DNA of 64,000 bases from Candidatus Omnitrophota bacterium (GCA_041650835.1 JBAZKL010000004.1:230900-294899), one strand, 5' to 3'; shown: positions 2,568-32,486, numbered from the stretch's first letter. Numbers and translations are program-made. The notes: a model not told the origin generated them from the sequence alone.

Positions 2568-2588
2568 CGATAGTATGCAAACCCCTTT

Positions 2589-2700
2589 CGCAGAAGGCGA
2601 AACACCAACGCGATTCCTTTTAAGCGTTGGGTGTAGCAGAAGGACTGCCTGCCGGTAGGCAGGCGAAACACCCGCGCAATACCTATAAGCGCGGGGTGCT
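2589..2700. repeat. Two tandem GC-rich REP-like palindromic units (gcagaaRg ... cacc-N5-loop-N5'-gggtg) in the 5' leader of bamA. The second unit carries the ctgcctgccggtaggcagg hairpin.
   Basis: Hairpins caccaacgc/gcgttgggtg and cacccgcgc/gcgcggggtg. The same unit recurs at about 4165 and at 10540-10780. Confidence 0.55.
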
Positions 2701-2803
2701 ATCGTAAAAACCAACACACATTTTTGTAACCAGTAACCTTCATTCCTAATTTTATTTAATATATCACAATCTTTTCAAAAAGCAAACTATTTTCTTTAAC
2801 GGG

Positions 2804-4141
2804 TTATTCCCCCTGAATGATATTCTCGAACTTGGTATATTCCTTGACAAAGGTAAGCTTCATCGACCCGACCGGCCCGTTCCTCTGCTTGGCGATAATG
2901 ACCTCCGCGATACCTTGATTGTCCGGCGTCGGATTATAATACTCCTCCCTCAAAAGCAGGACCACGACATCAGCGTCCTGTTCGATAGCGCCGGATTCCC
3001 GAAGGTCGGAAAGCTGCGGGCGATGGTCCGTGCGTGACTCAACGGCGCGCGACAACTGGCTGATAGCGATAAGCGGGACATTGAGTTCGCGGGCCAGCGC
3101 TTTTAAGGAACGGGAGATCTCCGAGATCTCAGCCTGGCGGTTATCGACGCCTAATTTGCCGCGCATTAATTGCAGGTAATCCAGAACGATAAGCTGTATA
3201 TTATACTGCGATTTTAAACGCCTGGCTTTCGCGCGCAGTTCCATTACGGAGATAGCGGGAGTATCGTCGATAAAGATAGGGGCCTCCGACAATTTACCCG
3301 CGGCCGCGGTCAGGCGCGGCCAGTCAGACGTAGAAAGATACCCGGTACGCACTTTATGCGCGTCCACTTTGGCGTGAGAACAAAGCATCCTCTGAGCCAG
3401 TTGCTCCTTAGACATTTCCAAGCTGAAGAACGCGATCGGGACTTTTTCCACGATACCCGCGTATTCAGCCATATTTAAAGCCAAGGCGCTCTTACCCATG
3501 GAAGGCCTCCCGGCAACAATGATAAGGTCGGAAGGCTGCAGCCCCGCGGTCTTCATGTCGAAATCGATAAATCCCGTCGGGATACCGGTAACATGCGCTT
3601 TTTTCTGGTAGAGCCTGTCAATGGTCTCAATACTGTCTTTAATGATCTCTTTGAGGTGAAGGCAGGCGCCCTGAGCGCGGTGGTCCCGGACATCAAAGAT
3701 CAAAGTCTCCGCGGCATCGACCAGCTCGTCGACATTTCCTTCATTCTCAAAACACAGCGATACGATCTTTGTCGCGTTATTGATCAGGCCGCGCAGCGTG
3801 TTCTTTTCCTTAACGATGGAAACATAGTGGCTGATATTCGCGGCGGTTGGGACAGAGTTCACTAATTCCGTCAAGAAACTGACGCCGCCGACCGCATCCA
3901 GCAAGCCCAAACGCTTTAATTCGTCGGTCAAAGTGATCAGGTCGACTGCCCGGTTCTCGCCGTAGAGGTCGGATATGACCCCGAATATCTTCCGGTGCGA
4001 ATCTTTGTAGAACGAGATCTTGTCTAAAGACTCAACAGCGACGGCAATGGCCTCTTCATCTATAAGCATAGAGCCCAAAACAGCCATTTCAGCCTCAAGG
4101 TTTTGTGGAGGGAGTTTATCAGAAGATAATTCAGTAGGCAT
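2804..4141 (-). CDS. dnaB: Replicative DNA helicase DnaB. The likely start is MPTELSSDK; the ORF track extends it to 4189.
   Basis: N-terminal DnaB domain (NLEAEMAVLGSML), Walker A GRPSMGKS and a RecA-like C-terminus. Confidence 0.85.
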   Translation of the reverse strand: MPTELSSDKLPPQNLEAEMAVLGSMLIDEEAIAVAVESLDKISFYKDSHRKIFGVISDLYGENRAVDLITLTDELKRLGLLDAVGGVSFLTELVNSVPTAANISHYVSIVKEKNTLRGLINNATKIVSLCFENEGNVDELVDAAETLIFDVRDHRAQGACLHLKEIIKDSIETIDRLYQKKAHVTGIPTGFIDFDMKTAGLQPSDLIIVAGRPSMGKSALALNMAEYAGIVEKVPIAFFSLEMSKEQLAQRMLCSHAKVDAHKVRTGYLSTSDWPRLTAAAGKLSEAPIFIDDTPAISVMELRAKARRLKSQYNIQLIVLDYLQLMRGKLGVDNRQAEISEISRSLKALARELNVPLIAISQLSRAVESRTDHRPQLSDLRESGAIEQDADVVVLLLREEYYNPTPDNQGIAEVIIAKQRNGPVGSMKLTFVKEYTKFENIIQGE

Positions 4142-4161
4142 GCTCTCGGTACTCGGCTGCG

Positions 4162-4200
4162 CAGAAAGCGCGCACCGGCGCAATTCCAATTAGCGCCGGG
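4162..4200. repeat. Single REP-like palindromic unit (caccggcgc-aattccaatta-gcgccgggtg) in the dnaB leader.
   Basis: Inverted repeat seen directly; same family as 2589-2700 and 10540-10780. Confidence 0.5.
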
Positions 4201-4219
4201 TGTGCTCGGTTATCGGTTA

Positions 4220-4669
4220 TTACTTCTTCACGATCCAGATCTTTATTTTTGCGGAAATCTCAGGATGCAATTTAACCACTACTTCATAAATACCCAAGGC
4301 ATTGATCGGGTCATCCAAAGCAATAAGGTTTTTCTCAATATTAAAACCTTCGTCTTTAAGCGCCCGGGCGATATCCTGCGCGGCGACATTCGCGTATAAC
4401 TTCTCCCCTTCATGCACTAAAACAGGGATCGTCAGCGATACATTCGCCAATTTTTCTTTCAGCGCCAGCGCTTCCTGCTTTAATTTTTCCTGCTGGATAT
4501 CCCTGCGCTGTATTTCCTGCTGAAGCTTCTTGCGGTTAGCATCGGTAGCCAACACGGCCAAACCGCGGGGGATAAGGTAATTCAAGGCGTGGCCGTCTTT
4601 GACCTTAACGACGCCCCCCGCTTTCCCGAGACCGGCAACATCTTTTTCGAGTATGACTTCCATCGGCAA
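4220..4669 (-). CDS. rplI: 50S ribosomal protein L9.
   Basis: MEVILEKDVAGLGKAGGVVKVKDGHALNYLIPRGLA is an L9 signature. The start may be three codons into the ORF. Confidence 0.85.
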   Translation of the reverse strand: MPMEVILEKDVAGLGKAGGVVKVKDGHALNYLIPRGLAVLATDANRKKLQQEIQRRDIQQEKLKQEALALKEKLANVSLTIPVLVHEGEKLYANVAAQDIARALKDEGFNIEKNLIALDDPINALGIYEVVVKLHPEISAKIKIWIVKK

Positions 4670-4725
4670 CTCAACTGTTTACCCGCGGGCACCTTTATTC
4701 CGGCGCCCGAAGGACATACTATCAA

Positions 4726-4959
4726 TTACGCCTTAATGTACGGCATAAGCCCCAGGAACCGGGCTTTCTTGATCTCTTCGGTGATCTTACGCTGATGCTT
4801 GGCGCAATTACCGGTGCTGCGGGTCGAAATAATGCCCCCGCGCTCCCTGGCGAACAATTCCAACAATTTAATATCTTTATAATCTATTGACTTTACTCTT
4901 TCGGCGCAAAACCGGCACGATCTTTTCCTCATCGGTAAAAAGGAACCCGGCCTTTTCAT
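4726..4959 (-). CDS. rpsR: 30S ribosomal protein S18. The start is uncertain: the ORF track gives 4983, overlapping ssb.
   Basis: CRFC...IDYKD...LLELF...ISTRSTGNCAKHQRKITEEIKKARFLGLMPY is an S18 signature. Confidence 0.8.
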   Translation of the reverse strand: MKRPGSFLPMRKRSCRFCAERVKSIDYKDIKLLELFARERGGIISTRSTGNCAKHQRKITEEIKKARFLGLMPYIKA

Positions 4960-4972
4960 GATCTTTTTAGGT

Positions 4973-5404
4973 TTAATTCTCATTTAATTTCTCCTCACTT
5001 TCGTCTAACCATGCTGTTTCTGTAGCATGCTCCTGACGCGGTTCTTCAGATGCCTCAGCGGGCGCTTTTCCGGAAGGCGCGCCGATAAATTGCACGCGTT
5101 CCACCCGGACCTCGATAACGCTGCGTTTATTCCCCGTGTTGTCTTCCCAGGTACGGGATTGAAGCCTGCCCTCGATAAAAAGAGGGCTTCCTTTATGTAA
5201 ATACTGATTGCACGTTTCCGCCTGTTTATCCCAGACAACAGCGGTGATAAAACAGACCTCTTCCTTCAACTCCTGGTTCCTATCTTTGAATTTCCGGTTC
5301 ACCGCCAGGCGAAGATTAGCCACGGCTGTGCCCTGAGGAGTATACCGCAACTCCGGGTCTTTCGTTAAATTACCCATCAACAATACTTTATTAAAACTAG
5401 CCAT
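4973..5404 (-). CDS. ssb: Single-stranded DNA-binding protein.
   Basis: OB-fold N-terminus (LMGNLTKDPELRYTPQGTAVANLRLAVNR) and an acidic C-terminal tail. Confidence 0.85.
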   Translation of the reverse strand: MASFNKVLLMGNLTKDPELRYTPQGTAVANLRLAVNRKFKDRNQELKEEVCFITAVVWDKQAETCNQYLHKGSPLFIEGRLQSRTWEDNTGNKRSVIEVRVERVQFIGAPSGKAPAEASEEPRQEHATETAWLDESEEKLNEN

Positions 5405-5427
5405 AATCCTCTCCTTTAAAACAACAT

Positions 5428-5470
5428 CATCAAACGAAACTAACGATAGTAACGATAGTAACGAAACTAA
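5428..5470. repeat. Short tandem taacgaNNc direct repeats between rpsF and ssb.
   Basis: aacgatagtaacgatagtaacgaaactaacgat. It is related to the larger taacgag-word palindrome at 50411-50535. Confidence 0.4.
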
Positions 5471-5475
5471 CGATC

Positions 5476-5769
5476 TTACGCTTTTCCCAAAGCTGAGACT
5501 AAAAGCCTCAGGATATTTTCATTTAATTTATATATTTCTTTCAGCTTTACGATAGCGCCCGGGTCAATGGTGAAATTCATCAGGAAATAGACCCCTTCCG
5601 TCGATTTCTTGATCGGGAAAGTCAATTTCCTTCGTTCTCCCCAGACTGCCGCCTGAGAGACCTGCCCGTTATTCTTAATAACCGCGTCCTGGATCTGAGC
5701 AAAGAGGGTTTTACGCTCTTCTTCCGATAACTCAGGTTTCGTTATAAACATCGCTTCATACTTGTTCAT
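5476..5769 (-). CDS. rpsF: 30S ribosomal protein S6.
   Basis: MNKYEAMFITKPELSEEE... is an S6 signature; it sits in the operon position ahead of ssb-rpsR-rplI. Confidence 0.85.
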   Translation of the reverse strand: MNKYEAMFITKPELSEEERKTLFAQIQDAVIKNNGQVSQAAVWGERRKLTFPIKKSTEGVYFLMNFTIDPGAIVKLKEIYKLNENILRLLVSALGKA

Positions 5770-5782
5770 TGCCGCTTTCCTT

Positions 5783-6364
5783 TCATTTGATTTTTTCTTT
5801 TTTGTTAAACACGTTCATGCTTGCATCTATACCTTCACGAACCCACATTTCACAACACTCTATCGCCTGCGCCGTTACTTCCTCTAATTGCTTCTTCTGG
5901 GCCCGCGGAAAAGAAGACAACACATAATCAGAGACGACTTTTTCCGTCCGCCGGGGCCTGTCAATACCGATGCGCAGCCGCGCGAATTCCTGGCTTTTGA
6001 GCGCGTCGATGATCGATTTAAGCCCGCGCTGGCCTCCCGAAGACCCTCCCGGTTTTATCCTGAGCCTGCCAAACTCCAGGTCAAGGTCATCGCAGACGAC
6101 CAAAAGATCGTTCAACTCAACCCGGTATTTACGCACCAGAGCCGCAACGGCGCATCCGGAAAGGTTCATGAACGTAAGCGGCACCGCTATTGCTACCGCG
6201 CGCCCCTCAATATCCGTTTTCGCGCTCACCGCCGATACCGAACTGTCTTTTTTCAACGCGAGCTTATACCTGCCCGCCAAACCCCTGATTATCGAAGAAC
6301 CGATGTTATGCCTGGAACGCGCATACCATATACCCGGATTACCCAGCCCTACAATTAGTTTCAT
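5783..6364 (-). CDS. pth: Peptidyl-tRNA hydrolase.
   Basis: MKLIVGLGNPG...RHNIG... is a Pth signature. Confidence 0.9.
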   Translation of the reverse strand: MKLIVGLGNPGIWYARSRHNIGSSIIRGLAGRYKLALKKDSSVSAVSAKTDIEGRAVAIAVPLTFMNLSGCAVAALVRKYRVELNDLLVVCDDLDLEFGRLRIKPGGSSGGQRGLKSIIDALKSQEFARLRIGIDRPRRTEKVVSDYVLSSFPRAQKKQLEEVTAQAIECCEMWVREGIDASMNVFNKKEKIK

Positions 6365-6408
6365 GATGCTCCTACGCCAACCAATCGCCGATGCTGCAGG
6401 CTTGCCGG

Positions 6409-7092
6409 TTATTTCTCTTTAGCTTCCGCTTCTTTACCCTCGGCAGGAACTTCCTTCTTCTCTTTTATAACCTCGGGCTCTTTCTTCTCTTCGCCTTCAA
6501 CGCCTTCAGCAGGCGCCTCTTCTTTCATCGGAGCGGCGACTGAAACGATGATCGAATCGGGGTCGTTTAAAACCTTGATACTCGCAGGGAACACCACGTC
6601 TTTAATATGGACCGCCCCGCCCAATTTTAAATGGCTGACATCGACGCTGATATCTTCGGGCATCTCCGTCGGCAAACACTCGATCTCGATCTCCCACAGG
6701 ATATGTTCAAGTGAACCACCCTCAAGCTTAACGCCGGGAGCCTCTCCCTTGACCGTGACGGGAACACTCACCTTGATAGTTTTTGTCAAAGAGATCTCAT
6801 GAAAATCAACATGGATAATATCTCCCTTGACCGGATGATGCTGGATATCCTTGATCAAACAAGGCCGGCTTTTTTTCTTCTTATCGTCTTTTATCTTAAG
6901 CGATACGACCACATTCTCCAGCCTGTGCTCATGCAAAAGGTGCAGCAACGCCCGGTAAGCGACCTTCACCGACTGGGCTTCTTTACCTTCCCCATAAACA
7001 ACTGCCGGGATAAAATTCTTCTCGCGTAAATCTTTTACTTTGACCCTGCCTGTTTCTTCTCGTAACTCTGCTTCCAATACTATCTCTTCCAT
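6409..7092 (-). CDS. rplY: 50S ribosomal protein L25 / general stress protein Ctc, with a Lys/Glu-rich C-terminal tail.
   Basis: N-terminal L25/Ctc domain (REETGRVKVKDLREKNFIPAVVYG); the glmU-prs-ctc-pth arrangement is conserved. Confidence 0.8.
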   Translation of the reverse strand: MEEIVLEAELREETGRVKVKDLREKNFIPAVVYGEGKEAQSVKVAYRALLHLLHEHRLENVVVSLKIKDDKKKKSRPCLIKDIQHHPVKGDIIHVDFHEISLTKTIKVSVPVTVKGEAPGVKLEGGSLEHILWEIEIECLPTEMPEDISVDVSHLKLGGAVHIKDVVFPASIKVLNDPDSIIVSVAAPMKEEAPAEGVEGEEKKEPEVIKEKKEVPAEGKEAEAKEK

Positions 7093-7158
7093 GGCTTCCT
7101 TTTCCTTTCATACCTCGATTACATTACCGTGATTTTTTAAGTTTTACGCTTTTGGCCC

Positions 7159-8097
7159 TTAATCAAACAAAGAACTGACCGATTCTTCATTATGAATCCG
7201 CTTGATGGCTTCGCCTAAAAGGCTTGCCATTGATAAAACTTTGATCCGGGGGTGCTTTTTATGGTCAGCAAGCGGGATACTGTCGGAAATAACCAGTTCT
7301 TTAAGGTCACGGCACTGTTCTATCCGCTCAAGAGCCGGGCCGGATAAAACACCGTGAGTTATCGCCGCGTTTATCGATTTACACTTTGCTTTCTTTAACG
7401 CTTCCACCGCTTCGATCAACGAACTGCCTGTAGCTACCAGGTCATCGACAATGATCGCGTTCTTATTTTCAACCTCGCCTAAAATATGCATCACCTCGGT
7501 CTTTTCGGGGGAATCCCGCCTTTTATCGATAATGGCCAGGCCCGCGCCGAACCTTTTGGCGTACGCGCGCGCCATCTTGATCCCGCCGACATCGGGAGAA
7601 ACGATAACGAGGTCATTGATCTTTCCTTTTGAAAAATAATCTACAAAAACACCGACCGCGAGCAAATGGTCCACCGGGATATCAAAAAACCCCTGGATCT
7701 GGCCGGCATGTAAATCTATCGTTAAAATACGGTCGGCGCCGGCGATCGTCAACAAATTGGCAACGAGCTTCGCGGTGATCGGCACCCGCGGCTGGTCTTT
7801 ACGGTCCTGGCGGGCGTAGCCGAAATACGGGACAACCGCCGTAATGCGGTCGCTGGAGGCCCTTTTTAAAGCATCAATAATGATCAGGAGCTCCATCAAA
7901 TTATCGTTCGTCGGAGGGCAGGTCGGCTGCACGAGGAAAACATCTTTGCCCCGGACATTGTCATTTATTTTTACGCGGATCTCTCCTTCGCTGAACCGTG
8001 AAACAAACGCATCAGACAAATTAACTTTCAGGTATTTACAAATATCTCCGGCCAATGCCGGATGGGCATTACCGCTAAATACTGCTAATTTATCCAT
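7159..8097 (-). CDS. prs: Ribose-phosphate pyrophosphokinase.
   Basis: PRPP synthetase motifs (VPYFGYARQDRK, DLHA, PRPP-binding loop). Confidence 0.9.
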   Translation of the reverse strand: MDKLAVFSGNAHPALAGDICKYLKVNLSDAFVSRFSEGEIRVKINDNVRGKDVFLVQPTCPPTNDNLMELLIIIDALKRASSDRITAVVPYFGYARQDRKDQPRVPITAKLVANLLTIAGADRILTIDLHAGQIQGFFDIPVDHLLAVGVFVDYFSKGKINDLVIVSPDVGGIKMARAYAKRFGAGLAIIDKRRDSPEKTEVMHILGEVENKNAIIVDDLVATGSSLIEAVEALKKAKCKSINAAITHGVLSGPALERIEQCRDLKELVISDSIPLADHKKHPRIKVLSMASLLGEAIKRIHNEESVSSLFD

Positions 8098-8111
8098 AGT
8101 AATCTCGCTTT

Positions 8112-9377
8112 TTATGTGTCGCGTGTTTTTGCCGCCAGGGGCACAGCAGGAACGCCGACAACAGTCGCTCCCGCGGCAACATGATGATGCCGCCTCACCA
8201 CCGACCCGGCACCCGTCTTAGCGGCCTTCCCGATCCTGACAGGCGCGATCAACACCGTGTCGGAACCAATAAAGGCCCCGTCCTCTATAACGGTAATATT
8301 TTTATGCGTTCCGTCGTAGTTGGCGGTAACCGTGCCTGCTCCGATATTAACGCGCTTTCCGATACGGCTGTCGCCGATATAAGAAAAATGCTTTGCTAAA
8401 GTTTTTGATCCTAATGCAGAACGGGAAATTTCCAGGAAGTTTCCAACGGTAACTTCATTATTTAAAACCGTGCCTTCGCGCAAACGGGCAAAAGGGCCTA
8501 CATTGCAGGATTTCCCAATTTTAACATTTTTTTCAATAACTGTAAAGGGATAAATTACGCTATCCCGGCCTATTTTCACTCCATAACTGATAAAAGCCGA
8601 ATCAGGGTCGATAATGCTGACCCCCTCTTTCATGAATTCATCATTGATGCGCCGCTGCATGATCTTTTGAGCCTTAGACAATTCTAAGCGGGAATTAACC
8701 CCCATAGTTTCAAGGACATCAGGCGTTTCCGCGCTTTCAACCAGGTCCCCCTGTTGATAAAGGATCCCGATCACATCAGTCAGATAATATTCTTTCTTAC
8801 GGTTGTTCGGTTTAACTTTCTTTAAGGCGCCGATCAGCTTTTTCTTTTCAAAACAAATGATCCCGGTATTGATCTCTTTGATTTCCTTTTGGAAATCGTC
8901 CGCATCTTTTTCCTCGACGATACCGCAAATACTGCCATAAGCATCCCGGAGGATCCTGCCATAGCCGAGCGGTTTTTCGACCTTCGCCGTCAGCATGGTC
9001 GCCGCCGCCCCTGAACCTTCGTGGCGCTTGACCAATTTCGCGATCGTCTGCTTCTGTAATAACGGGACATCGCCGTAAAGGACGATAACCGAACCGCTGA
9101 AACTCTTTAAAAGCGGCAACGCCTCTTTCATGGCATCGGCGGTGCCCAGAAGTTTCTTTTGGACCACGGTTTGCGAAGCATTCCCGACAAAAGCCCTGAC
9201 CAGGTCCGCTTTAAACCCCAGGACAGTAACCGTTCTTTTCATTTTCAGGCTCGCGACCAGGTCCAGGACATACCCAAGCATCGGCCTGCCGCAGACGGCA
9301 TGCAAGACCTTCGGCAGGTCGGACTTCATCCTGGTGCCTTTTCCTGCCGCCAAAATTATTGCCGCGATGTTCTTCAT
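8112..9377 (-). CDS. glmU: Bifunctional GlmU (UDP-GlcNAc pyrophosphorylase / GlcN-1-P acetyltransferase).
   Basis: N-terminal LAAGKGTRM nucleotidyltransferase motif and a C-terminal left-handed beta-helix of hexapeptide repeats. Confidence 0.85.
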   Translation of the reverse strand: MKNIAAIILAAGKGTRMKSDLPKVLHAVCGRPMLGYVLDLVASLKMKRTVTVLGFKADLVRAFVGNASQTVVQKKLLGTADAMKEALPLLKSFSGSVIVLYGDVPLLQKQTIAKLVKRHEGSGAAATMLTAKVEKPLGYGRILRDAYGSICGIVEEKDADDFQKEIKEINTGIICFEKKKLIGALKKVKPNNRKKEYYLTDVIGILYQQGDLVESAETPDVLETMGVNSRLELSKAQKIMQRRINDEFMKEGVSIIDPDSAFISYGVKIGRDSVIYPFTVIEKNVKIGKSCNVGPFARLREGTVLNNEVTVGNFLEISRSALGSKTLAKHFSYIGDSRIGKRVNIGAGTVTANYDGTHKNITVIEDGAFIGSDTVLIAPVRIGKAAKTGAGSVVRRHHHVAAGATVVGVPAVPLAAKTRDT

Positions 9378-9410
9378 AAACGTTCTAATAATTATTTTTA
9401 TACGTACGTT

Positions 9411-9554
9411 TAAAGTTAAAAGTTTAAAGTTTAAATATCAAAGGAAGGTTAAAATTCAAAGGTTTAATTTTAAAATTTCCTACCTGCCGGTAGGCAGGGA
9501 CCTTAGACCTTTGATCTTCCTTTGTTATTTAGCCTTGAATCTTTATACTTTACT
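9411..9554. mobile_element. MITE-like AT-rich palindromic intergenic element, copy A, with a GC hairpin core.
   Basis: Terminal inverted repeats ...aaatatcaaaggaagg / ccttcctttgttattt... around the core cctacctgccggtaggcagg. About 80% identical to copy F. Confidence 0.7.
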
Positions 9555-9644
9555 ATAACTTGTTCCTGCGAAGCCGCACCGAGGTTTTACATTATTAACG
9601 GCGAAGCAGAACGATGCCAGACGTAGTCCGCTTTCTGAATACGA

Positions 9645-9908
9645 TTACAATTGTTTTAATAAAACTTTGTCGCCTTTTATCAATGCCAACTTCTTTTTTC
9701 TTGTCCAGCCTTTTATTTGTGCTTCGCGCTTTAATGCTGAAGGCTTGTCTAAGTATTGTTCATAAAATAGTATCTTTTCTACTCCAAATGATTTTGTAAA
9801 ATGACCGCCCCTGCCTGAGGCATGTTCTTTAAAGCGACGCTGAAGATCATCTGTAATGCCGGCATATAAATCGCTGTTCTTACATTTGAGGATATAAACA
9901 AACCATAT
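9645..9908 (-). CDS. GIY-YIG nuclease family protein (UPF0213/YhbQ-like). There is no canonical in-frame start; the best candidate is ATA with an upstream AAGGA.
   Basis: Minus-strand frame reads IWFVYILKCKNSDLYAGITDDLQRRFKEH...IKGWTRKKK. It is missed by the ORF track because it has no ATG/GTG/TTG start. Confidence 0.6.
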   Translation of the reverse strand: MWFVYILKCKNSDLYAGITDDLQRRFKEHASGRGGHFTKSFGVEKILFYEQYLDKPSALKREAQIKGWTRKKKLALIKGDKVLLKQL

Positions 9909-10022
9909 GGTGTCCTTCGACTCGTTCGTCGCTATCGCTCCTTACTCGCTCAGGATACTTCTCCTCCCTCGCCTTGCCTGGGCTTGTACTGAGCGACCGA
10001 GCGAAGCGAGGGAGTCGAAGTA

Positions 10023-10093
10023 CTGGGACGCATGGATTCGAACCATGATAGCGAGACCCAAATTCTCGTGTCCTACCATTGGACGACATCCCA
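10023..10093 (-). tRNA. tRNA-Gln (anticodon UUG).
   Basis: Cloverleaf folded by hand: acceptor TGGGATG/CGTCCCA, anticodon stem CGAGA/TCTCG with loop ATTTGGG, T-arm CATGG-TTCGAAT-CCATG, discriminator G. Confidence 0.75.
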
Positions 10094-10107
10094 AAATACA
10101 TTATAAT

Positions 10108-10521
10108 CTAAAGATCGGCATCTCCATACTCGCCGGGCTTACCGGTCTTTTTTTCGATTTCATACGCTTCCAGGACTTTCTTCTGTAAATATTCCCGGAA
10201 AACCTGTGTTATCGGATGAGCGACATCCTTATGCTCCGACTGCGCGAACGCGCCTGCCTCCGGGCCCACGGGACGGACTGATACGCTTAACTGCCCGCCG
10301 CACTGATTACAGAATTTTGAACGCGCTTCATTCTTAAATCCGCACTTCGGACAAGACTGTTTGATCTTACGCGAAGGCATAGCGATGAACAATTCGCTGG
10401 TACCCTGAATAACCTTGATATTCCTCACCACAAACGCGTCGTCAAAGGTAACCGTAGCGTATGCTTTCAGCTTTTTGTCGGGTGACTCTCGTAAGAAGAT
10501 TTTAACTTCAGTTATGTCCAT
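10108..10521 (-). CDS. spoVG: SpoVG-domain protein with a C-terminal zinc ribbon. The start is at MDITEVKIFL.
   Basis: SpoVG core (TVTFDDAFVVRNIKVIQGTSELFIAMPSRK) followed by CPKCG...CNQCGG. Confidence 0.75.
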   Translation of the reverse strand: MDITEVKIFLRESPDKKLKAYATVTFDDAFVVRNIKVIQGTSELFIAMPSRKIKQSCPKCGFKNEARSKFCNQCGGQLSVSVRPVGPEAGAFAQSEHKDVAHPITQVFREYLQKKVLEAYEIEKKTGKPGEYGDADL

Positions 10522-10542
10522 AGCAGCACCCCTTTCACAGAA

Positions 10543-10785
10543 AGTGAAACACCAACGCAATTCTGCCGCAGAAAGCGGCATACCGGCGCAATTCCAATCT
10601 GCGCCGGGTGCAAGCAGAAAGCCGCGTACCGGCGCAATACCGCCGCAACAAGCGGCGTACCCAGCCACACCTATTAGGCTGGGTGCGATCAGCGCCGGGT
10701 ACAGTCAGAAAGCCTGCCGTCAGGCAGGTTGCACACCCAGCCACGCCAATGAGGATAGGTGCCGATAAGCGCGGAGTGTTGTCAC
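10543..10785. repeat. Array of about five or six GC-rich REP-like palindromic units in the spoVG 5' leader, downstream of the ispE stop.
   Basis: Repeated gcagaaagcg ... cacc-N5-(aattccaat / aatacc / acacctatta loops)-N5'-gggtg units. One unit contains cctgccgtcaggcagg. Confidence 0.55.
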
Positions 10786-11715
10786 TTAAATCGTCCTTGT
10801 TACCGCCACAAATAAAGACTTATTTTCTTTCTTAAGCTGCCGGGAAAAAGACCGGGCTTCCTGTTGAGAAGGAACAAAAGCAAAAATCGACGGCCCGCTC
10901 CCAGACATTAAACTTGACCGCAACCCTAAGAAAACAAATCTTTTTTTCAGAAGTTTTACTTCAGGATAGACTTTTTCCGTAACAAGTTCCAAGCTGTTAA
11001 ACAAGGCTTTTTCGATCAAAGTAAGGTCTTTTTTCTTTAATATCGAACATAATATTGTAACATTTTGTTTAGGAATTGTCAACCTCAGAAGGCCTCCGGA
11101 ATACTCATCCCATTTCTTATAAATAAGCGGCGTGGAAACATGTAACGGCAATACGGCTAAAACATGCCACAGCCGGATAGCTTGAAGCGAATGTACGGGA
11201 CGGATCTTCTCTCCCCTGCCGCTTCCTAAAGCGAAAGGGGCGTCATATATAAAAAAAGGCACATCACTGCCGATCTTTTTGGCTAAAGAAACTAATTTAT
11301 TCCTCGTAAGCCCAAGGCCCCAAAGGCGATCCAGCCCTAAGAGAACTCCCGCAGCATCGCTTGAACCGCCGCCCATCCCGGCGCCTACAGGGATACGCTT
11401 GATGATCTTGATCCTTACCCCTTTATCGAGCTTCAAGCTCTCCTGCAACAATTGAGCGCTCTTATACGCGAGATTGGAGCTATCCTTAGGGACACCCGGA
11501 TGATCAGAAATGATCTCGATCTTTTTACCCGGCAAAGAAGATAACTTGAGCGTGTCATGCAGGTCAACGCGCTCAAAAAGAGTTTTTATCTCATGATAAC
11601 CATCGGCGCGCTTCTTAATAACCTCGAGGAACAGGTTGAGCTTAGCGTAACAACTGACTTCCACGCCTCGGGAACCAAGCAGTTTCAACGCTGAATGTAA
11701 TTGCCCCATGGACAT
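10786..11715 (-). CDS. ispE: 4-diphosphocytidyl-2-C-methyl-D-erythritol kinase.
   Basis: GHMP kinase motif PVGAGMGGGSSDAAG; N-terminal AKLNLFLEV. Confidence 0.85.
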   Translation of the reverse strand: MSMGQLHSALKLLGSRGVEVSCYAKLNLFLEVIKKRADGYHEIKTLFERVDLHDTLKLSSLPGKKIEIISDHPGVPKDSSNLAYKSAQLLQESLKLDKGVRIKIIKRIPVGAGMGGGSSDAAGVLLGLDRLWGLGLTRNKLVSLAKKIGSDVPFFIYDAPFALGSGRGEKIRPVHSLQAIRLWHVLAVLPLHVSTPLIYKKWDEYSGGLLRLTIPKQNVTILCSILKKKDLTLIEKALFNSLELVTEKVYPEVKLLKKRFVFLGLRSSLMSGSGPSIFAFVPSQQEARSFSRQLKKENKSLFVAVTRTI

Positions 11716-15924: not shown

Positions 15925-17340
15925 ATGTTTAAAATGCTCCGAGACAAAAAAACCCAGAAAACTATCTGGATCGTTTTAGCGGTCATTATCGTACCGGCAT
16001 TCATTTTTTGGGGCTCCAGCAGCATAATCAAAGAGCCGGGAGAAGTAAATAATTTCTCCCTCAAGATCTTCGGCAAACGTATTTCTTACTCGGATTACCA
16101 GGACTCACTCGCGGCGGTCCGTAATCAGGCACTCATCCAATTCGGGGACAGCTTTGAGCAAATGCAGAAATTCCTGAACCTGGAAAGCCAGGCGGTCCAA
16201 CGGCTGGTTCTCGTCGCGGAAGCGCGCAAGCGTAAGATCAAGGTCAGCGACAAAGAAGTCGTCGATTTTATCCAGGCATTCGCGCCTTTCCAAAATAAAG
16301 GCCAGTTCGACAATAGGGCATACGCGTATATATTGCAATATGTATTCCGCACCCAGCCCCGGCTATTTGAAGAACAAACCAGGCAGAACCTGATGATAGC
16401 GAAGCTTTATGAAACCATTACCAAGGACGCCTCCGTTACCGAGCAGGAGGTCAAAGACGCTTACGCAAAAGAAAACGAGCAGATCAGCGTAAGTTATATT
16501 GCCAGCCTGTACGCGGACTCAAGCAAGGACGCCGTTACCAGCGATGAAGAACTTAAAGATTACTTTACTAAAAATTCCCTTTCTTTTAAACAACCCCTGT
16601 CGTTTAACGCCGTCTACCTCGCCCTGGATAACGAAACCCAGCAAAACAGCATTACCCCGCTGATCGCGAAAGAAAAAGACCTTGAAAAAGCGGCAAAAGA
16701 ATTAAACCTGAGCGTCAAAGAAACCGGGTTATTCAGCCAGGTTGACCCTGTCCCGGGGATCGGCTGGAGCCCGCAGATCTCCGCGATCATCTCAAAGCTT
16801 GACGTCGGGCAGATCTCAAGCGTCATCCCTTTTGACAAGAAATTCTACGTATTCCAGCTCAAAGAGCGTCGTGACCCTTATATACCCGATTTTGAAGCTA
16901 TAAAAGAAAAGGTAAAAGACGCCGTGGCCAGGAACAAGGCAAAGGATATCGCGAAAAGAAAAGCCGACAGCTGCTTTAAAATACTCCAGGATGCCGCGAA
17001 GATCGGCCTTAAAACGATCAATTTCGAGGCAATCGCCAAAGACGCGGGGCTTAAAACAGGGACAACCGCCCCTTTTAAATTCGGCAGCTATATCGAGAAT
17101 ATCGGCGCCTCCGACGAATTCTTTACCGCGGCACGCTCTTTAAAAGATGACGAGTTCAGCGCGGTGATCGACTCCCCTTCCGGCTACTTCATCATTAAGA
17201 CAAAATCGAGGGTGCCGGTTGATGAAGCGAAGTTTAAGGCGGAAAAAGAGGAATTCACGCAAAAGCTTTTATCCGAAAAGAAGCAGAACGAATTCTCAAA
17301 ATTCGCCGAAGAATTAATGAAGAAAATACAGGCAGGCTAA
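15925..17340 (+). CDS. ppiD: PpiD/SurA-like periplasmic chaperone (N-terminal transmembrane anchor, SurA-N-like and parvulin-like regions).
   Basis: An N-terminal TM helix followed by a long periplasmic domain with PpiD-like architecture. It is the only confident plus-strand gene in the window. Confidence 0.65.
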   Translation: MFKMLRDKKTQKTIWIVLAVIIVPAFIFWGSSSIIKEPGEVNNFSLKIFGKRISYSDYQDSLAAVRNQALIQFGDSFEQMQKFLNLESQAVQRLVLVAEARKRKIKVSDKEVVDFIQAFAPFQNKGQFDNRAYAYILQYVFRTQPRLFEEQTRQNLMIAKLYETITKDASVTEQEVKDAYAKENEQISVSYIASLYADSSKDAVTSDEELKDYFTKNSLSFKQPLSFNAVYLALDNETQQNSITPLIAKEKDLEKAAKELNLSVKETGLFSQVDPVPGIGWSPQISAIISKLDVGQISSVIPFDKKFYVFQLKERRDPYIPDFEAIKEKVKDAVARNKAKDIAKRKADSCFKILQDAAKIGLKTINFEAIAKDAGLKTGTTAPFKFGSYIENIGASDEFFTAARSLKDDEFSAVIDSPSGYFIIKTKSRVPVDEAKFKAEKEEFTQKLLSEKKQNEFSKFAEELMKKIQAG

Positions 17341-20619: not shown

Positions 20620-20664
20620 TTGCGTTAGAAAAACGCACACCGGCCTATCCTTTAAGACCGGGTG
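20620..20664 (-). terminator. Candidate intrinsic terminator after the zinc-ribbon gene: a GC hairpin (cacccggtc...ggccggtgtg) followed by a T-run.
   Basis: Imperfect inverted repeat followed by gcgtttttct on the minus strand. Confidence 0.35.
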
Positions 20665-20859
20665 TTACCGCAGGAGCTGCCTATCTGCCAGGCTTAATTT
20701 CGTTTTCTTATCCCCGACCACATTAGCGCAACTGGCGCACCGGTACTCATACAAATATCCATCGGGCAAGATCAAGAGTAAGCGCTCCCGTACCGGCATA
20801 GACCTGCCGCAGCGGTCGCAATATAAACAGCTGGCTTGTAAATTCTCGTATTGTTTCAT
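20665..20859 (-). CDS. Small zinc-ribbon protein (CxxC ... CxxC).
   Basis: 64 aa with CLYCDRCG and CASCAN pairs. Confidence 0.5.
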   Translation of the reverse strand: MKQYENLQASCLYCDRCGRSMPVRERLLLILPDGYLYEYRCASCANVVGDKKTKLSLADRQLLR

Positions 20860-21704: not shown

Positions 21705-21848
21705 AAAGTTTAAAGGATTAAGACCAAATAACAAAGGAAATTCAAAGGATAAAGGTCCCTGCCTGCCGGCAGGTAGGAAATTTTAAAATTTAACCTTGAA
21801 ACTTAAACCTTCCTTTGTTCTTTAACCTTTAGTCTTTATCATTAACTA
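21705..21848. mobile_element. MITE-like element, copy B, inverted relative to copies A, E and F. Core is ccctgcctgccggcaggtagg.
   Basis: Same terminal inverted repeats (aaataacaaaggaa / ttcctttgttcttta) with the core in reverse-complement orientation. Confidence 0.7.
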
Positions 21849-24525: not shown

Positions 24526-24648
24526 TAAAGTATAAAGTATAAAGAACAAAGGAAGATTAAAGGTTAAAGGTTAAAGGTTAAATTTTAGAATTTAGTCTTT
24601 ATTCTTTGAATTTCCTTTGTTATTTAATCTTTATCCTTTAAACTTTCC
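24526..24648. mobile_element. MITE-like element, copy C; a short variant lacking the GC hairpin core.
   Basis: Shares the ...aagaacaaaggaagattaaaggttaaa / ttctttgaatttcctttgttatttaatcttta termini with the other copies. Confidence 0.6.
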
Positions 24649-25697: not shown

Positions 25698-25842
25698 GTT
25701 AATTTTAAAGGCTAAAGTTTAAATAACAAAGGAAGATTAAAGGCCTAAGGTTCCTGCCTACCGGCAGGTAGGAAATTTTAAAATTAAATCTTTATTCTTT
25801 GAATTTCCTTTGTTCTTTAACCTTTAATCTTTAGACTTATCC
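25698..25842. mobile_element. MITE-like element, copy D, in the same orientation as copy B. Core is cctgcctaccggcaggtagg.
   Basis: This core is the exact reverse complement of the copy A and F core. Confidence 0.7.
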
Positions 25843-27139: not shown

Positions 27140-27160
27140 AATCTAAGCCCTCTACGATTA

Positions 27161-27300
27161 ATGTTAAAGGTTAAAGACTAAATATCAAAGGAATGTTTAA
27201 GTCTAAAGGTTAAATTTTAAAATTACCTGCCTGCCGGTAGGCAGGAATCTTTAAACTTTAAATTTCCTTTATTATTTAATCTTTGATCTTTATACTTTAT
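27161..27300. mobile_element. MITE-like element, copy E. Core is acctgcctgccggtaggcagg.
   Basis: Same family; termini aaatatcaaaggaatg / atttcctttattattta. Confidence 0.7.
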
Positions 27301-28077: not shown

Positions 28078-28218
28078 AAAGTTTAAAGATTAAATTTTAA
28101 ATAACAAAGGAAACTCAAAGAATAAAGGTTAAATTTTAAAATTTCCTACCTGCCGGTAGGCAGGAACCTTAAGCCTTTAATCTTCCTTTGTTATTTAGAC
28201 TTTAAACTTTATCATTAA
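28078..28218. mobile_element. MITE-like element, copy F. Core is cctacctgccggtaggcagg.
   Basis: Closest relative of copy A. Confidence 0.7.
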
Positions 28219-28301
28219 CCGTAGTTAATTATGAGCTTTTGTTATATATTAATACGCAATTACACGTTTTCTTCTAGATTATCATTCTTTTATTATTAAG
28301 G

Positions 28302-32173: not shown

Positions 32174-32290
32174 TGATAAAGGCTAAAGACTAAATAACAA
32201 AAGAAGGTTAAAGTCTCAAGTCTAAATTTTAAAGTTTAACCTTTATTCTTTGAATTTCCTTTGTTATTTAAACTTTAATTTTTAGACTTT
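32174..32290. mobile_element. MITE-like element, copy G; a short variant lacking the GC core.
   Basis: Shares ...aaataacaaaagaaggttaaag / ttctttgaatttcctttgttatttaaacttta termini with copy C. Confidence 0.6.
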
Positions 32291-32486
32291 CCGTCAACCT
32301 AATTTTATGAATTTACAGGGGATTACTTCTTCATCCAGGGCATCATTAATGAGCAGACAACTTACGGAGCCTCATTTTTTACGCTTCCTACGACGTAAGT
32401 TGTAGGCCGTCAGGCCGTCTGCGAATTATCCCGCAGCGCGCGATGCGGCATTTCGAAGAAATGCGCGAGCGTTTACGCCAGGGAAG

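What the first reader, a model, noticed from the sequence alone, without database searches (positions are those of the whole stretch)
2589..10785. GC-rich REP-like tandem palindrome arrays placed in the 5' leaders of bamA, dnaB and spoVG
Units of about 45 nt (gcagaaRgcg ... cacc-N5-loop(aattccaat / aatacctataa)-N5'-gggtg) occur twice at 2589-2700, once at 4162-4200 and five or six times at 10543-10785. In two cases the array ends just upstream of a conserved gaaaggggt Shine-Dalgarno-like sequence and the ATG (bamA: ...ctgcgaaaggggtttgcatactatcgATG; spoVG: ...ctgtgaaaggggtgctgctATG). They would therefore be transcribed as highly structured leaders and may influence mRNA stability or translation, or act as terminators for the upstream gene. 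They also create spurious GC-rich ORFs in the six-frame track.
Basis: seen in the sequence. Interest (0 to 1): 0.55.

Follow-up and report, generated by a model that had tools for sequence, protein, structure and literature searches.

The report
Two-hairpin mobile intergenic repeats of Omnitrophota
The GC-rich palindromes in front of bamA, dnaB and spoVG are real copies of a previously undescribed 46-base, two-hairpin repeat that has spread through the spaces between genes in many Omnitrophota genomes. It inserts beside and inside its own copies, so it behaves like a very small piece of mobile DNA rather than a control element dedicated to these three genes.

Summary
The window holds about nine copies of a ~46-nt unit, all on the minus strand and all intergenic, at four sites.

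Read on the minus strand, each unit has two hairpins:
- Hairpin 1: CACCC-stem-T(A/T)ATNGG(A/T)ATT-stem-GGTG, with a bulged C.
- Hairpin 2: a variable 5-6 bp stem with a YTTCT loop.

Both stems covary strongly: 13 of 15 pairs show compensatory changes across 131 copies. No Rfam family matches.

An unconstrained-stem pattern scan of 185,579 species genomes found stem-validated copies only in 23 Omnitrophota-type MAGs.

Relatives show the units come and go:
- The GHMP-kinase/spoVG spacer is empty (24-28 nt) in two relatives.
- It holds exactly one unit in a third.
- In the window, that same unit is split in its loop by ~200 nt of further units.

At least ten independent nested insertions lie at the same loop position. 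Units occur in both orientations relative to genes, about 2:1 sense. They often abut the Shine-Dalgarno sequence but lack terminator U-tracts. No transposase was found.

Best reading: a new REP/BIME- or MITE-like miniature mobile repeat. Its effects on mRNA are secondary and untested.

The parts
2586..2633 (-). Unit next to bamA. Hairpin 1 is CACCCAACGC-ttaaaaggaatc-GCGTTGGTG (2603-2633). Hairpin 2 is TTTCGC-cttct-GCGAAA (2586-2602). Its 3' arm runs into the SD-like GGGGT (2581-2585). The bamA ATG is at 2567-2565.
   Evidence: Sequence; CM hit of 60.2 bits; predicted fold. This unit is absent from the orthologous site in L051.
2634..2698 (-). Distal bamA unit. Hairpin 1 is CACCCCGCGC-ttataggtatt-GCGCGGGTG (2669-2698). 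Hairpin 2 is interrupted by a mini-palindrome GCCTGCC-tacc-GGCAGGC (2647-2664) and ends with CCTTCTGC (2636-2643).
   Evidence: CM hit of 43 bits. It is conserved in L051. A promoter-like site lies upstream at 2778-2749.
4157..4202 (-). Single unit in the rplI-dnaB spacer: CACCCGGCGC-taattggaatt-GCGCCGGTG followed by CGCGC-tttct-GCGCAG. It is flanked by CCGATAA/CCGAG short repeats. The dnaB ATG is at 4141-4139 and the rplI stop is at 4220.
   Evidence: CM hit of 59.6 bits. The same site is filled in L051. Near-identical composite copies occur elsewhere in that MAG (L038, L048, L065).
10533..10563 (-). 3' half of the oldest (outer) spoVG unit: gaatt-GCGTTGGTG followed by TTTCAC-tttct-GTGAAA. 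It runs into the SD-like GGGGTG (10527-10532). The spoVG ATG is at 10521-10519.
   Evidence: CM partial hit of 16.9 bits. The alignment with the single intact unit of L095 shows this is the same unit.
10763..10778 (-). 5' half of the same outer unit: CACTCCGCGC-ttatcg. About 200 nt of inserted units separate it from its 3' half.
   Evidence: The minimum-free-energy fold pairs the two halves around the whole array.
10701..10762 (-). Degenerate unit: CACCTATCC-tcattggcgtg-GCTGGGTG, then the mini-palindrome CCTGCC-tgac-GGCAGG (10713-10728), then CTTTCTGA.
   Evidence: weak CM hit at 10727-10778, 13.8 bits.
10611..10700 (-). Unit whose hairpin-1 loop carries a nested unit: ACCCGGCGC-tgatcg-[nested unit]-gtatt-GCGCCGGTA, then CGCGGC-tttct-GCttg.
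   Evidence: CM hit at 10611-10701, 30.2 bits, with a long insertion; predicted fold.
10641..10685 (-). Nested unit: CACCCAGCC-taataggtgtg-GCTGGGTA followed by CGCCGC-ttgtt-GCGGCG. It sits between the two Gs of the host loop TGATCG|GTATT.
   Evidence: CM hit of 28 bits.
10564..10610 (-). Best-preserved unit: CACCCGGCGC-agattggaatt-GCGCCGGTA followed by TGCCGC-tttct-GCGGCA.
   Evidence: CM hit of 73 bits.
20621..20664 (-). It starts right after the stop codon of a 64-aa ORF (20665-20859). An A-tract and a TTGACA-N17-TAACAT promoter-like site (20611-20583) for the POR gamma gene follow it.
   Evidence: CM hit of 34.2 bits. The orthologous site has two units in L018 and two or more in L066.

Best explanation
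These are copies of a lineage-specific, non-autonomous miniature repeat of Omnitrophota. It is a discrete ~46-nt DNA unit made of two hairpins.

Shown:
- The unit has defined ends.
- It is gained and lost at orthologous sites.
- It accumulates in the short spacers between genes by three routes: insertion into unique intergenic DNA, usually just 5' of a purine-rich stretch such as the Shine-Dalgarno sequence or a promoter A-tract; insertion into the apex of hairpin-1 loops of resident copies, between the two Gs of GG(A/T)ATT; and gain or loss of whole units within arrays.

Inferred:
- A trans-acting enzyme, still unidentified, recognises the conserved features and moves or copies the unit, probably through a single-stranded hairpin intermediate as in REP/RAYT or IS200/IS605 systems. 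Those features are the CACCC/GGTG foot with its bulged C, the 11-nt loop and the YTTCT loop.
- Where a unit lies in the sense orientation it is transcribed into the mRNA. There it forms stable hairpins flush with the ribosome-binding site. This can secondarily affect mRNA stability or translation of bamA, dnaB and spoVG, but that is not why it is there.
For: Family and structure:
- 131 CM hits (E < 0.01) in 755 kb of fetched loci plus the window.
- 96.5% of cells are paired, 13 of 15 pairs show compensatory changes, and the covariation score is 0.44 against 0.13 in shuffles (0 of 500 shuffles reach it) and against 0.05 or less when partners are slid.

Lineage specificity:
- The pattern left the stem positions free. 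It gave 94 stretches in 185,579 species genomes.
- All stem-validated copies come from 23 Omnitrophota-type MAGs. The other 23 stretches lack complementary stems.
- There are no matches in plasmids, phages or viral contigs.

Gain and loss:
- The spoVG spacer is 24 nt in L097/L098 and 28 nt in L099/L100, with no unit. It is 62 nt in L095/L096, which is exactly one unit. It is 264 nt in the window, where the same unit is split in its loop. Each state is seen in two independent assemblies.
- In the bamA leader, L051 has one unit and the window has one more, flanked by CCTTCTGC.
- At the POR site the window has 1 unit, L018 has 2 and L066 has 2 or more, while the flanking DNA is 82-90% identical.

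Defined ends:
- Another repeat family occurs both empty (..TTAGCG|AAAC..) and with the unit inserted at that point, in L004, L037, L046, L065, L088 and L090.
- At least 10 nested insertions all lie at NG|G(A/T)ATT.

Other:
- Both orientations occur. Of 78 arrays, 35 have both flanking genes in sense and 16 have both antisense. In the antisense cases every gene of the 8-kb locus is on the other strand. Both orientations occur within one same-direction stretch of contig JBAZTA010000001.1.
- Head-to-head inverted partners occur in at least 9 loci.
- The genome also carries other small palindromic repeat families.
- The units are strictly intergenic, and their neighbours are ordinary housekeeping genes.
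Against: - No transposase was found. Only about 8 kb around each copy could be searched, never a whole genome.
- No target-site duplication is visible, so transposition cannot be told apart from recombination or gene conversion between copies.
- Three features could equally reflect selection on an RNA function: the 2:1 sense bias; the flush abutment of hairpin 2 to the Shine-Dalgarno sequence in about 20 of about 55 terminal units; and the roughly 3:1 excess of G.U over C.A mismatches on the element strand (25 against 9).
- The loop sequences are conserved across 23 species, so a trans factor must read them. That factor could be an RNA-binding protein.
- All the data come from MAGs, where repeat arrays can be mis-assembled.
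Confidence: 0.68

Rival explanations
1. A selected cis-acting RNA module. The two hairpins, transcribed in 5' UTRs and intercistronic spacers, are bound by a conserved RNA-binding protein or by the ribosome. They set mRNA stability, processing or translation initiation of many genes, forming a post-transcriptional regulon. Arrays act as multi-site leaders.
For: - Sense orientation is favoured: 48 arrays have a co-oriented downstream gene against 22 with an opposite one.
- Hairpin 2 ends flush with AGGAGG/GGAG, 5-18 nt before the start codon, in about 20 terminal units from many genomes.
- The loops (T(A/T)ATNGG(A/T)ATT and YTTCT) and the bulged C are conserved while the stems covary.
- G.U mismatches outnumber C.A on the element strand, 25 against 9.
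- GGA in the hairpin-1 loop plus a GGA in the Shine-Dalgarno sequence resembles the dual sites bound by CsrA (own knowledge).
Against: - One third of arrays are antisense to every neighbouring gene.
- The same genes lack the element in close relatives.
- Some copies lie upstream of promoters.
- Nested copies inside loops, and copies inside other repeats, are hard to explain by selection for regulation.
- About one third of loops read GGT rather than GGA, which argues against CsrA.
- No CsrA-like ORF is present in the sequence held, but that is only a small part of each genome.
- The terminal pair is C.A in 30 of 131 copies. It would be a G.U pair only on the other strand.
Confidence: 0.17
2. 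DNA-level binding sites for a nucleoid or topology protein (as proposed for gyrase and IHF at E. coli BIMEs), or another chromosome-structuring signal, kept in intergenic DNA in either orientation.
For: - Both orientations occur, and head-to-head pairs resemble BIME architecture.
- The units are strictly intergenic and are often placed just upstream of a promoter A-tract and -35 box.
Against: - No such protein or spacing regularity was identified.
- Density is modest, at 4 loci in 64 kb.
- The strong covariation of both stems points to a hairpin in single-stranded nucleic acid rather than a duplex recognition site.
- Presence or absence varies between close relatives.
Confidence: 0.08
3. Intrinsic terminators or attenuators for the upstream genes.
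For: The units are GC-rich hairpins placed directly after stop codons in several cases, for example 20664 in the window and L043, L049, L059, L076 and L091.
Against: - No U-tract follows either hairpin in the sense orientation. Many are followed by A-tracts or a Shine-Dalgarno sequence.
- The terminator-like count in the region is at chance level, 28 against 23.1 expected.
- The units sit inside apparent operons, immediately before translated genes.
Confidence: 0.03

Closest known systems
REP / BIME elements of Enterobacteria and Pseudomonas, and REPINs mobilised by RAYT transposases (PMC3337134, PMC3116915)
   Same: - Short, GC-rich, imperfect palindromes, strictly extragenic and present in many copies.
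- Found as singlets, tandem clusters and inverted pairs.
- The consensus is lineage-specific.
- They persist at orthologous sites, but copy number there varies.
- They are transcribed into mRNAs as stable hairpins.
   Different: - The unit here is two different hairpins in a fixed order, not one palindrome or an inverted doublet.
- The conserved foot is CACCC...GGTG with a bulged C, not a GTAG-type head.
- Precise self-nesting at the loop apex is common.
- No RAYT gene was found in the sequence that could be searched.
- The host is Omnitrophota, which none of the REP/RAYT papers retrieved here cover.
Bacterial MITEs and palindrome-associated elements derived from IS200/IS605 (own knowledge)
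   Same: - Non-autonomous, structured and intergenic, with defined ends.
- No obvious target duplication, as for IS200/IS605 derivatives.
- Hairpins at both ends, and insertion next to specific short sequences.
   Different: - At about 46 nt the unit is far smaller than typical MITEs (100-400 nt).
- It has no terminal inverted repeats.
- The ends coincide with the feet of the hairpins rather than lying 10-20 nt away.
- It shows no strict strand bias relative to the direction of the surrounding genes, unlike IS200/IS605.
Small dispersed repeats of heterocyst-forming cyanobacteria (Elhai and colleagues 2008; own knowledge, not retrieved here)
   Same: Very small mobile repeats that are found inserted within one another and within other repeats, in ways that preserve hairpins.
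   Different: The sequence, size, two-hairpin architecture and phylum all differ. No sequence relationship was tested.
CsrA/RsmA target leaders and CsrB-type multi-hairpin RNAs (own knowledge)
   Same: GGA presented in a hairpin loop, a second GGA in the Shine-Dalgarno sequence about 25-30 nt downstream, and arrays of repeated hairpins.
   Different: - One third of the loops carry GGU.
- Many copies are antisense or lie upstream of promoters.
- The element is gained and lost between relatives.
- No csrA gene was seen.

Membership tests
REP / BIME (repetitive extragenic palindromes) | Short imperfect palindrome, highly repeated, predominantly extragenic | tested here: met
   There are 9 units in the window and 131 in the fetched loci, all between ORFs. 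The palindromic stems covary.
REP / BIME (repetitive extragenic palindromes) | Occurs as singlets, clusters and alternating-orientation pairs | tested here: met
   Solo, tandem and nested copies occur. Head-to-head inverted partners occur in at least 9 loci.
REPIN-RAYT system | [quoted passage not shown] | tested here: not met
   The recurrent unit with defined ends is hairpin 1 plus hairpin 2 in direct order. Inverted doublets are a minority.
REPIN-RAYT system | A cognate RAYT (Y1 HUH transposase) gene in the same genome, typically flanked by its REPs | tested here: inconclusive
Genes flanked by units are housekeeping genes. Whole genomes could not be scanned.
MITE | Terminal inverted repeats and target-site duplication | tested here: not met
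   The ends are CACCC... and the 3' foot of hairpin 2, which are not inverted copies of each other. Empty and filled comparisons show no duplication.
IS200/IS605-derived miniature elements | Subterminal hairpins, no target duplication, insertion 3' of a fixed tetra- or pentanucleotide, strong strand bias | tested here: inconclusive
   Hairpins and the lack of duplication fit. The 5' flank is only loosely conserved: A at position -1 in 31 of 48 units and G in 12 of 48. Both orientations occur in one same-direction gene stretch.
Intrinsic (Rho-independent) terminator | GC-rich hairpin followed directly by a U-tract on the transcribed strand | tested here: not met
   The 3' flanks are purine-rich: position +1 is A or G in 46 of 48 units. 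The terminator scan is at chance level.
Any curated RNA family (Rfam 15) | Match to a covariance model at or near the gathering score | tested here: not met
   Only tRNAs reach the gathering score in the window and in six related loci. The best sub-threshold hits on the spoVG array have E = 0.26 and 1.2, far below the gathering scores.
CsrA/RsmA binding sites | Invariant GGA in the hairpin loop and a csrA gene in the genome | tested here: not met
   GGT replaces GGA in about one third of loops. No CsrA-like ORF is present in the sequence held, which is a weak test.

The most novel reading that the evidence does not exclude
The 46-nt unit is moved by a hairpin-reading enzyme that is not a RAYT and has not been described. 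This enzyme inserts the unit exactly at the apex of single-stranded hairpin loops, including the unit's own, and just 5' of purine-rich ribosome-binding sites. Omnitrophota would then carry one of the smallest defined-end mobile elements known. Its copies, placed flush with Shine-Dalgarno sequences, would have been co-opted as a genome-wide layer of translational or mRNA-stability control read by a conserved protein.
Probability: 0.15. Interest if true: 0.75.

Novelty: new variant of a known kind. Interest (0 to 1): 0.45.

Why it matters
Omnitrophota are uncultivated, small-celled bacteria, and nothing retrieved here describes their genome dynamics at the level of repeats.

What this family offers:
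- A new, well-defined example of a miniature structured repeat outside the Proteobacteria.
- Clean empty, single and expanded states at one locus.
- A precise, recurrent self-insertion point. This is a concrete handle for finding the enzyme responsible.

Practical consequences:
- The units create spurious GC-rich ORFs and mis-called gene starts in MAG annotation. For example, the spoVG ORF extends to 10668.
- They are likely break points for assembly.
- They could serve as strain markers.

If the hairpins next to ribosome-binding sites do affect expression, they would influence essential genes such as bamA, dnaB and spoVG.

Tried and rejected
- Known RNA family: rejected.
- Intrinsic terminator: rejected because there is no U-tract.
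- CsrA sites: weakened by GGT loops, antisense copies and the absence of a csrA-like ORF.
- Kissing interaction or pseudoknot between loop 1 and loop 2: no consistent complementarity by inspection, and GGA/GGT does not track TTTCT/CTTCT in the list.
- Anti-Shine-Dalgarno mimicry (CACCC and CUUUCU resemble parts of the 16S 3' tail): only a resemblance; no test was possible.
- RAYT or IS200 transposase next to the units: not found. The one weak hit is a dihydrouridine synthase.
- Strict linkage of orientation to transcription or replication strand: rejected.
- Plasmid, phage or viral origin: no matches. The single viral pattern hit lacks a stem.
- One literature search on cyanobacterial small dispersed repeats returned nothing useful.
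- The exact SpoVG protein of the window is not in the assembly index, so the source genome itself could not be retrieved.
- The metagenome-wide scan was not used.

Full report
**Setting.** The window has 47% G+C, and nearly all its genes lie on the minus strand.
- BamA/Omp85: 219-2567
- DnaB: 2804-4141
- Ribosomal protein L9: 4220-4669
- SpoVG with a zinc-ribbon insertion: 10108-10521
- A GHMP (IspE-like) kinase: 10786-11715

The closest relatives are MAGs labelled Candidatus Omnitrophota, or 'uncultured Planctomycetales' in the binchicken set. CAZPNW01 is 87-90% identical in nucleotide sequence and syntenic. JBAZTA01 is 82-84% identical. The best SpoVG hits are Omnitrophota proteins.

**The observation.** Read on the gene (minus) strand, each unit consists of two hairpins.
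- Hairpin 1: CACCC + 5 nt, an 11-nt loop T(A/T)ATNGG(A/T)ATT, then 5 nt + GGTG. This gives 9 bp with a conserved bulged C.
- Hairpin 2: a 5-6 bp stem of almost any sequence, closed by C-G, around the loop YTTCT.

I built a covariance model from 39 copies, 37 of them from other genomes, and ran it over the window without filters. It finds copies only at 2586-2698, 4157-4202, 10533-10778 and a fourth site, 20621-20664, all on the minus strand. Simple pattern counts are far above shuffles.

**Is the structure real?** I scanned one genome for each of 185,579 species with a pattern that fixes only the conserved single-stranded and foot positions. The stem positions were left free.
- Of 94 stretches found, 71 carry perfectly complementary stems. 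They come from 23 Omnitrophota-type MAGs.
- The other 23 stretches come from unrelated taxa, have no stems, and match the number I expected by chance (about 26, my own estimate).

Across 131 model hits:
- 96.5% of cells are paired.
- 13 of 15 pairs show changes on both sides.
- The covariation score is 0.44. Shuffles give 0.13, and 0 of 500 shuffles reach the observed value. Slid partners give 0.05 or less.

The caveat is that this alignment is fitted to the model. The stem-free origin of the sample limits the circularity. No Rfam family matches.

**What the copies do in evolution.** The decisive comparison is the spacer between the GHMP-kinase gene and spoVG, where gene order is conserved.

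| Genome | SpoVG identity | Spacer | Content |
|---|---|---|---|
| L097/L098 | 85% | 24 nt | No unit; plain GAGGAGG Shine-Dalgarno |
| L099/L100 | 80% | 28 nt | No unit; plain GAGGAGG Shine-Dalgarno |
| L095/L096 (JBAZTA01) | 92% | 62 nt | Exactly one unit, running into GGGGTG-ctact-ATG |
| Window | - | 264 nt | The same unit with ~200 nt of further units inserted in its hairpin-1 loop |

Each state is seen in two independent assemblies.

The predicted RNA or ssDNA fold of the window array is accordingly a multi-branched, nested structure closed by the two halves of the oldest unit. A second nesting lies inside it: unit 10641-10685 sits in the loop of unit 10611-10700.

Other evidence for gain, loss and defined ends:
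- At least ten independent nested insertions occur in other loci and genomes. All lie between the two Gs of the loop GG(A/T)ATT.
- A different ~95-nt repeat family occurs both empty (..TTAGCG|AAAC..) and with the 46-nt unit at exactly that point. This defines the ends of the unit and shows no target duplication.
- At the bamA leader, the relative L051 has one unit and the window has an extra one.
- At the site after the 64-aa ORF, the window has one unit, L018 has two and L066 has two plus more repeats. The flanking promoter region stays about 90% conserved in L018, and the unit sequences differ by compensatory stem changes.

Whole units are therefore gained, lost and replaced much faster than the surrounding DNA changes.

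**Position and orientation.** I used a crude ORF map of 78 arrays.
- 35 arrays have both flanking genes in the sense orientation and 16 have both antisense.
- Counting only the downstream gene, it is co-oriented in 48 arrays and opposite in 22.
- In the antisense cases every gene of the 8-kb locus lies on the other strand, with normal coding-strand GC3 skew.
- Both orientations occur along one stretch of contig JBAZTA010000001.1 whose genes all run the same way.

So there is a roughly 2:1 sense bias but no strict rule.

Flanks are non-random. The base before CACCC is A in 31 of 48 units and G in 12 of 48. The three bases after hairpin 2 are purine-rich.

Consistent with this, about 20 of about 55 non-nested terminal hairpin 2s end flush with AGGAGG/GGAG, 5-18 nt before a start codon. 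Eight are followed by an A-tract, in several cases with a -35-like TTGACA. Several units begin right after a stop codon.

In the window:
- The bamA array lies downstream of a promoter-like site (2778-2749), so it is probably in the 5' UTR.
- The unit at 20621-20664 lies upstream of a promoter-like site (20611-20583).
- No U-tracts follow the hairpins, and terminator-like matches are at chance level.

**Mechanism.**

Shown:
- A discrete two-hairpin unit with defined ends exists.
- It is specific to one lineage.
- It is inserted in unique DNA, in its own loops and in other repeats.
- It is present or absent at orthologous sites.
- It occurs in either orientation.

This is the behaviour of REP/BIME/REPIN-like or MITE-like miniature mobile DNA (definitions in PMC3337134).

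Inferred: the conservation of the loops and the bulge across 23 species, while the stems drift, means a trans-acting factor reads them. I take this to be the mobilising enzyme, acting on hairpins in single-stranded DNA, and I take the effects on mRNA to be secondary.

I could not identify that enzyme.
- All genes bracketed by units are housekeeping genes.
- Whole genomes could not be scanned.

**Main rival.** The main rival is a selected RNA module read by an RNA-binding protein. The sense bias, the flush Shine-Dalgarno abutment and a 25:9 excess of G.U over C.A mismatches favour it. Against it stand the antisense copies, the copies upstream of promoters, the empty orthologous sites and the nesting.

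I give the mobile-repeat reading about 0.68 and the RNA-module reading about 0.17. The two are not exclusive, because co-option of REPs is well known.

**Comparison with known systems.** The family meets the descriptive definition of REP/BIME elements. It fails two defining features of REPIN-RAYT systems: the inverted-doublet unit was tested and not met, and the cognate RAYT test was inconclusive. It also fails the MITE definition, having no terminal inverted repeats and no target duplication. The precise self-nesting recalls the small dispersed repeats of cyanobacteria (own knowledge). A literature search for Omnitrophota together with palindromic and intergenic repeats returned nothing relevant.

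**Verdict.** The reading as a leader or regulator of three specific genes is not supported as the primary explanation. This is a new variant of a known kind of element, of moderate interest. The most useful leads are the clean empty, single and expanded series at spoVG and the fixed insertion point in the loop.

Noticed in passing
window 9412-9553, 21706-21838, 24532-24648, 25700-25841, 27159-27300, 28078-28219, 32176-32292: A second intergenic repeat family with seven copies. It is a ~150-nt AT-rich long palindrome (TAAAGnnTAAAG...AACAAAGGAAG ... CTTCCTTTGTT...CTTTA), and most copies have a central GC-rich hairpin CCTGCC-GGYA-GGCAGG. The alignment with the relative L066 breaks at four of these sites (about 24500, 25700, 27200 and 28100), so they are variable insertions there. 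This looks like a MITE-like element in its own right.
   Followed up: partly
window 2647-2664 and 10713-10728; also L005, L006, L010, L051: The same mini-palindrome GCCTGCC-N4-GGCAGGC that forms the centre of the 150-nt repeat also sits inside hairpin 2 of some 46-nt units. This suggests a third, even smaller inserting module, or recombination between the families.
   Followed up: partly
L004 ~6400-6750, L037, L046, L065, L088, L090 (JBAZTA01 and CAZPNW01): A ~95-nt repeat, TTGAGCACCT..TTAGCGAAACCCCACCGAGTGCACG-(hairpin)-CGTGCGCTTACGAGGTG, is present in several copies per genome, with or without the 46-nt unit inserted at AGCG|AAAC. It lies antisense to the neighbouring genes. No Rfam match.
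   Followed up: partly
window 4203-4219 and 4142-4160; L038, L048, L051, L063, L065, L069, L075, L094: The dnaB-type unit is flanked on both sides by short direct repeats of the form CCGATAA / CCGAGNA. The whole composite recurs at many loci of the relative CAZPNW01, at up to 96% identity to the window copy.
   Followed up: no
L021, L035, L045, L066, L073, L083 (JBAZTA01, CAZPNW01): Another short palindrome, AAGACCGGGTCTT, recurs next to the units and in clusters, for example in L066 at 380-540.
   Followed up: no
window 10108-10521 (minus strand): SpoVG here carries a zinc-ribbon insertion (Pfam DZR/Zn_Ribbon at residues 54-79) inside the SpoVG domain. This form is conserved in thousands of Omnitrophota-like proteins.
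   Followed up: no
L095 3212-3454 (JBAZTA010000001.1): An 80-aa GIY-YIG domain gene sits between spoVG and the glmU-like gene in this relative. It is absent at that position in L097 and L099. In the window that interval carries a tRNA and a copy of the 150-nt repeat.
   Followed up: no
window 20665-20859 (minus strand): A 64-aa ORF with two CxxC pairs and no Pfam match is conserved in L018 and L066. It ends exactly where a unit begins.
   Followed up: no
window 1-64000: All ORFs of 110 aa or more that look like genes lie on the minus strand, except the SurA-like gene at 15925-17340. GC skew is uniformly negative on the plus strand, so the window appears to lie within one replichore with strongly co-oriented genes.
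   Followed up: no
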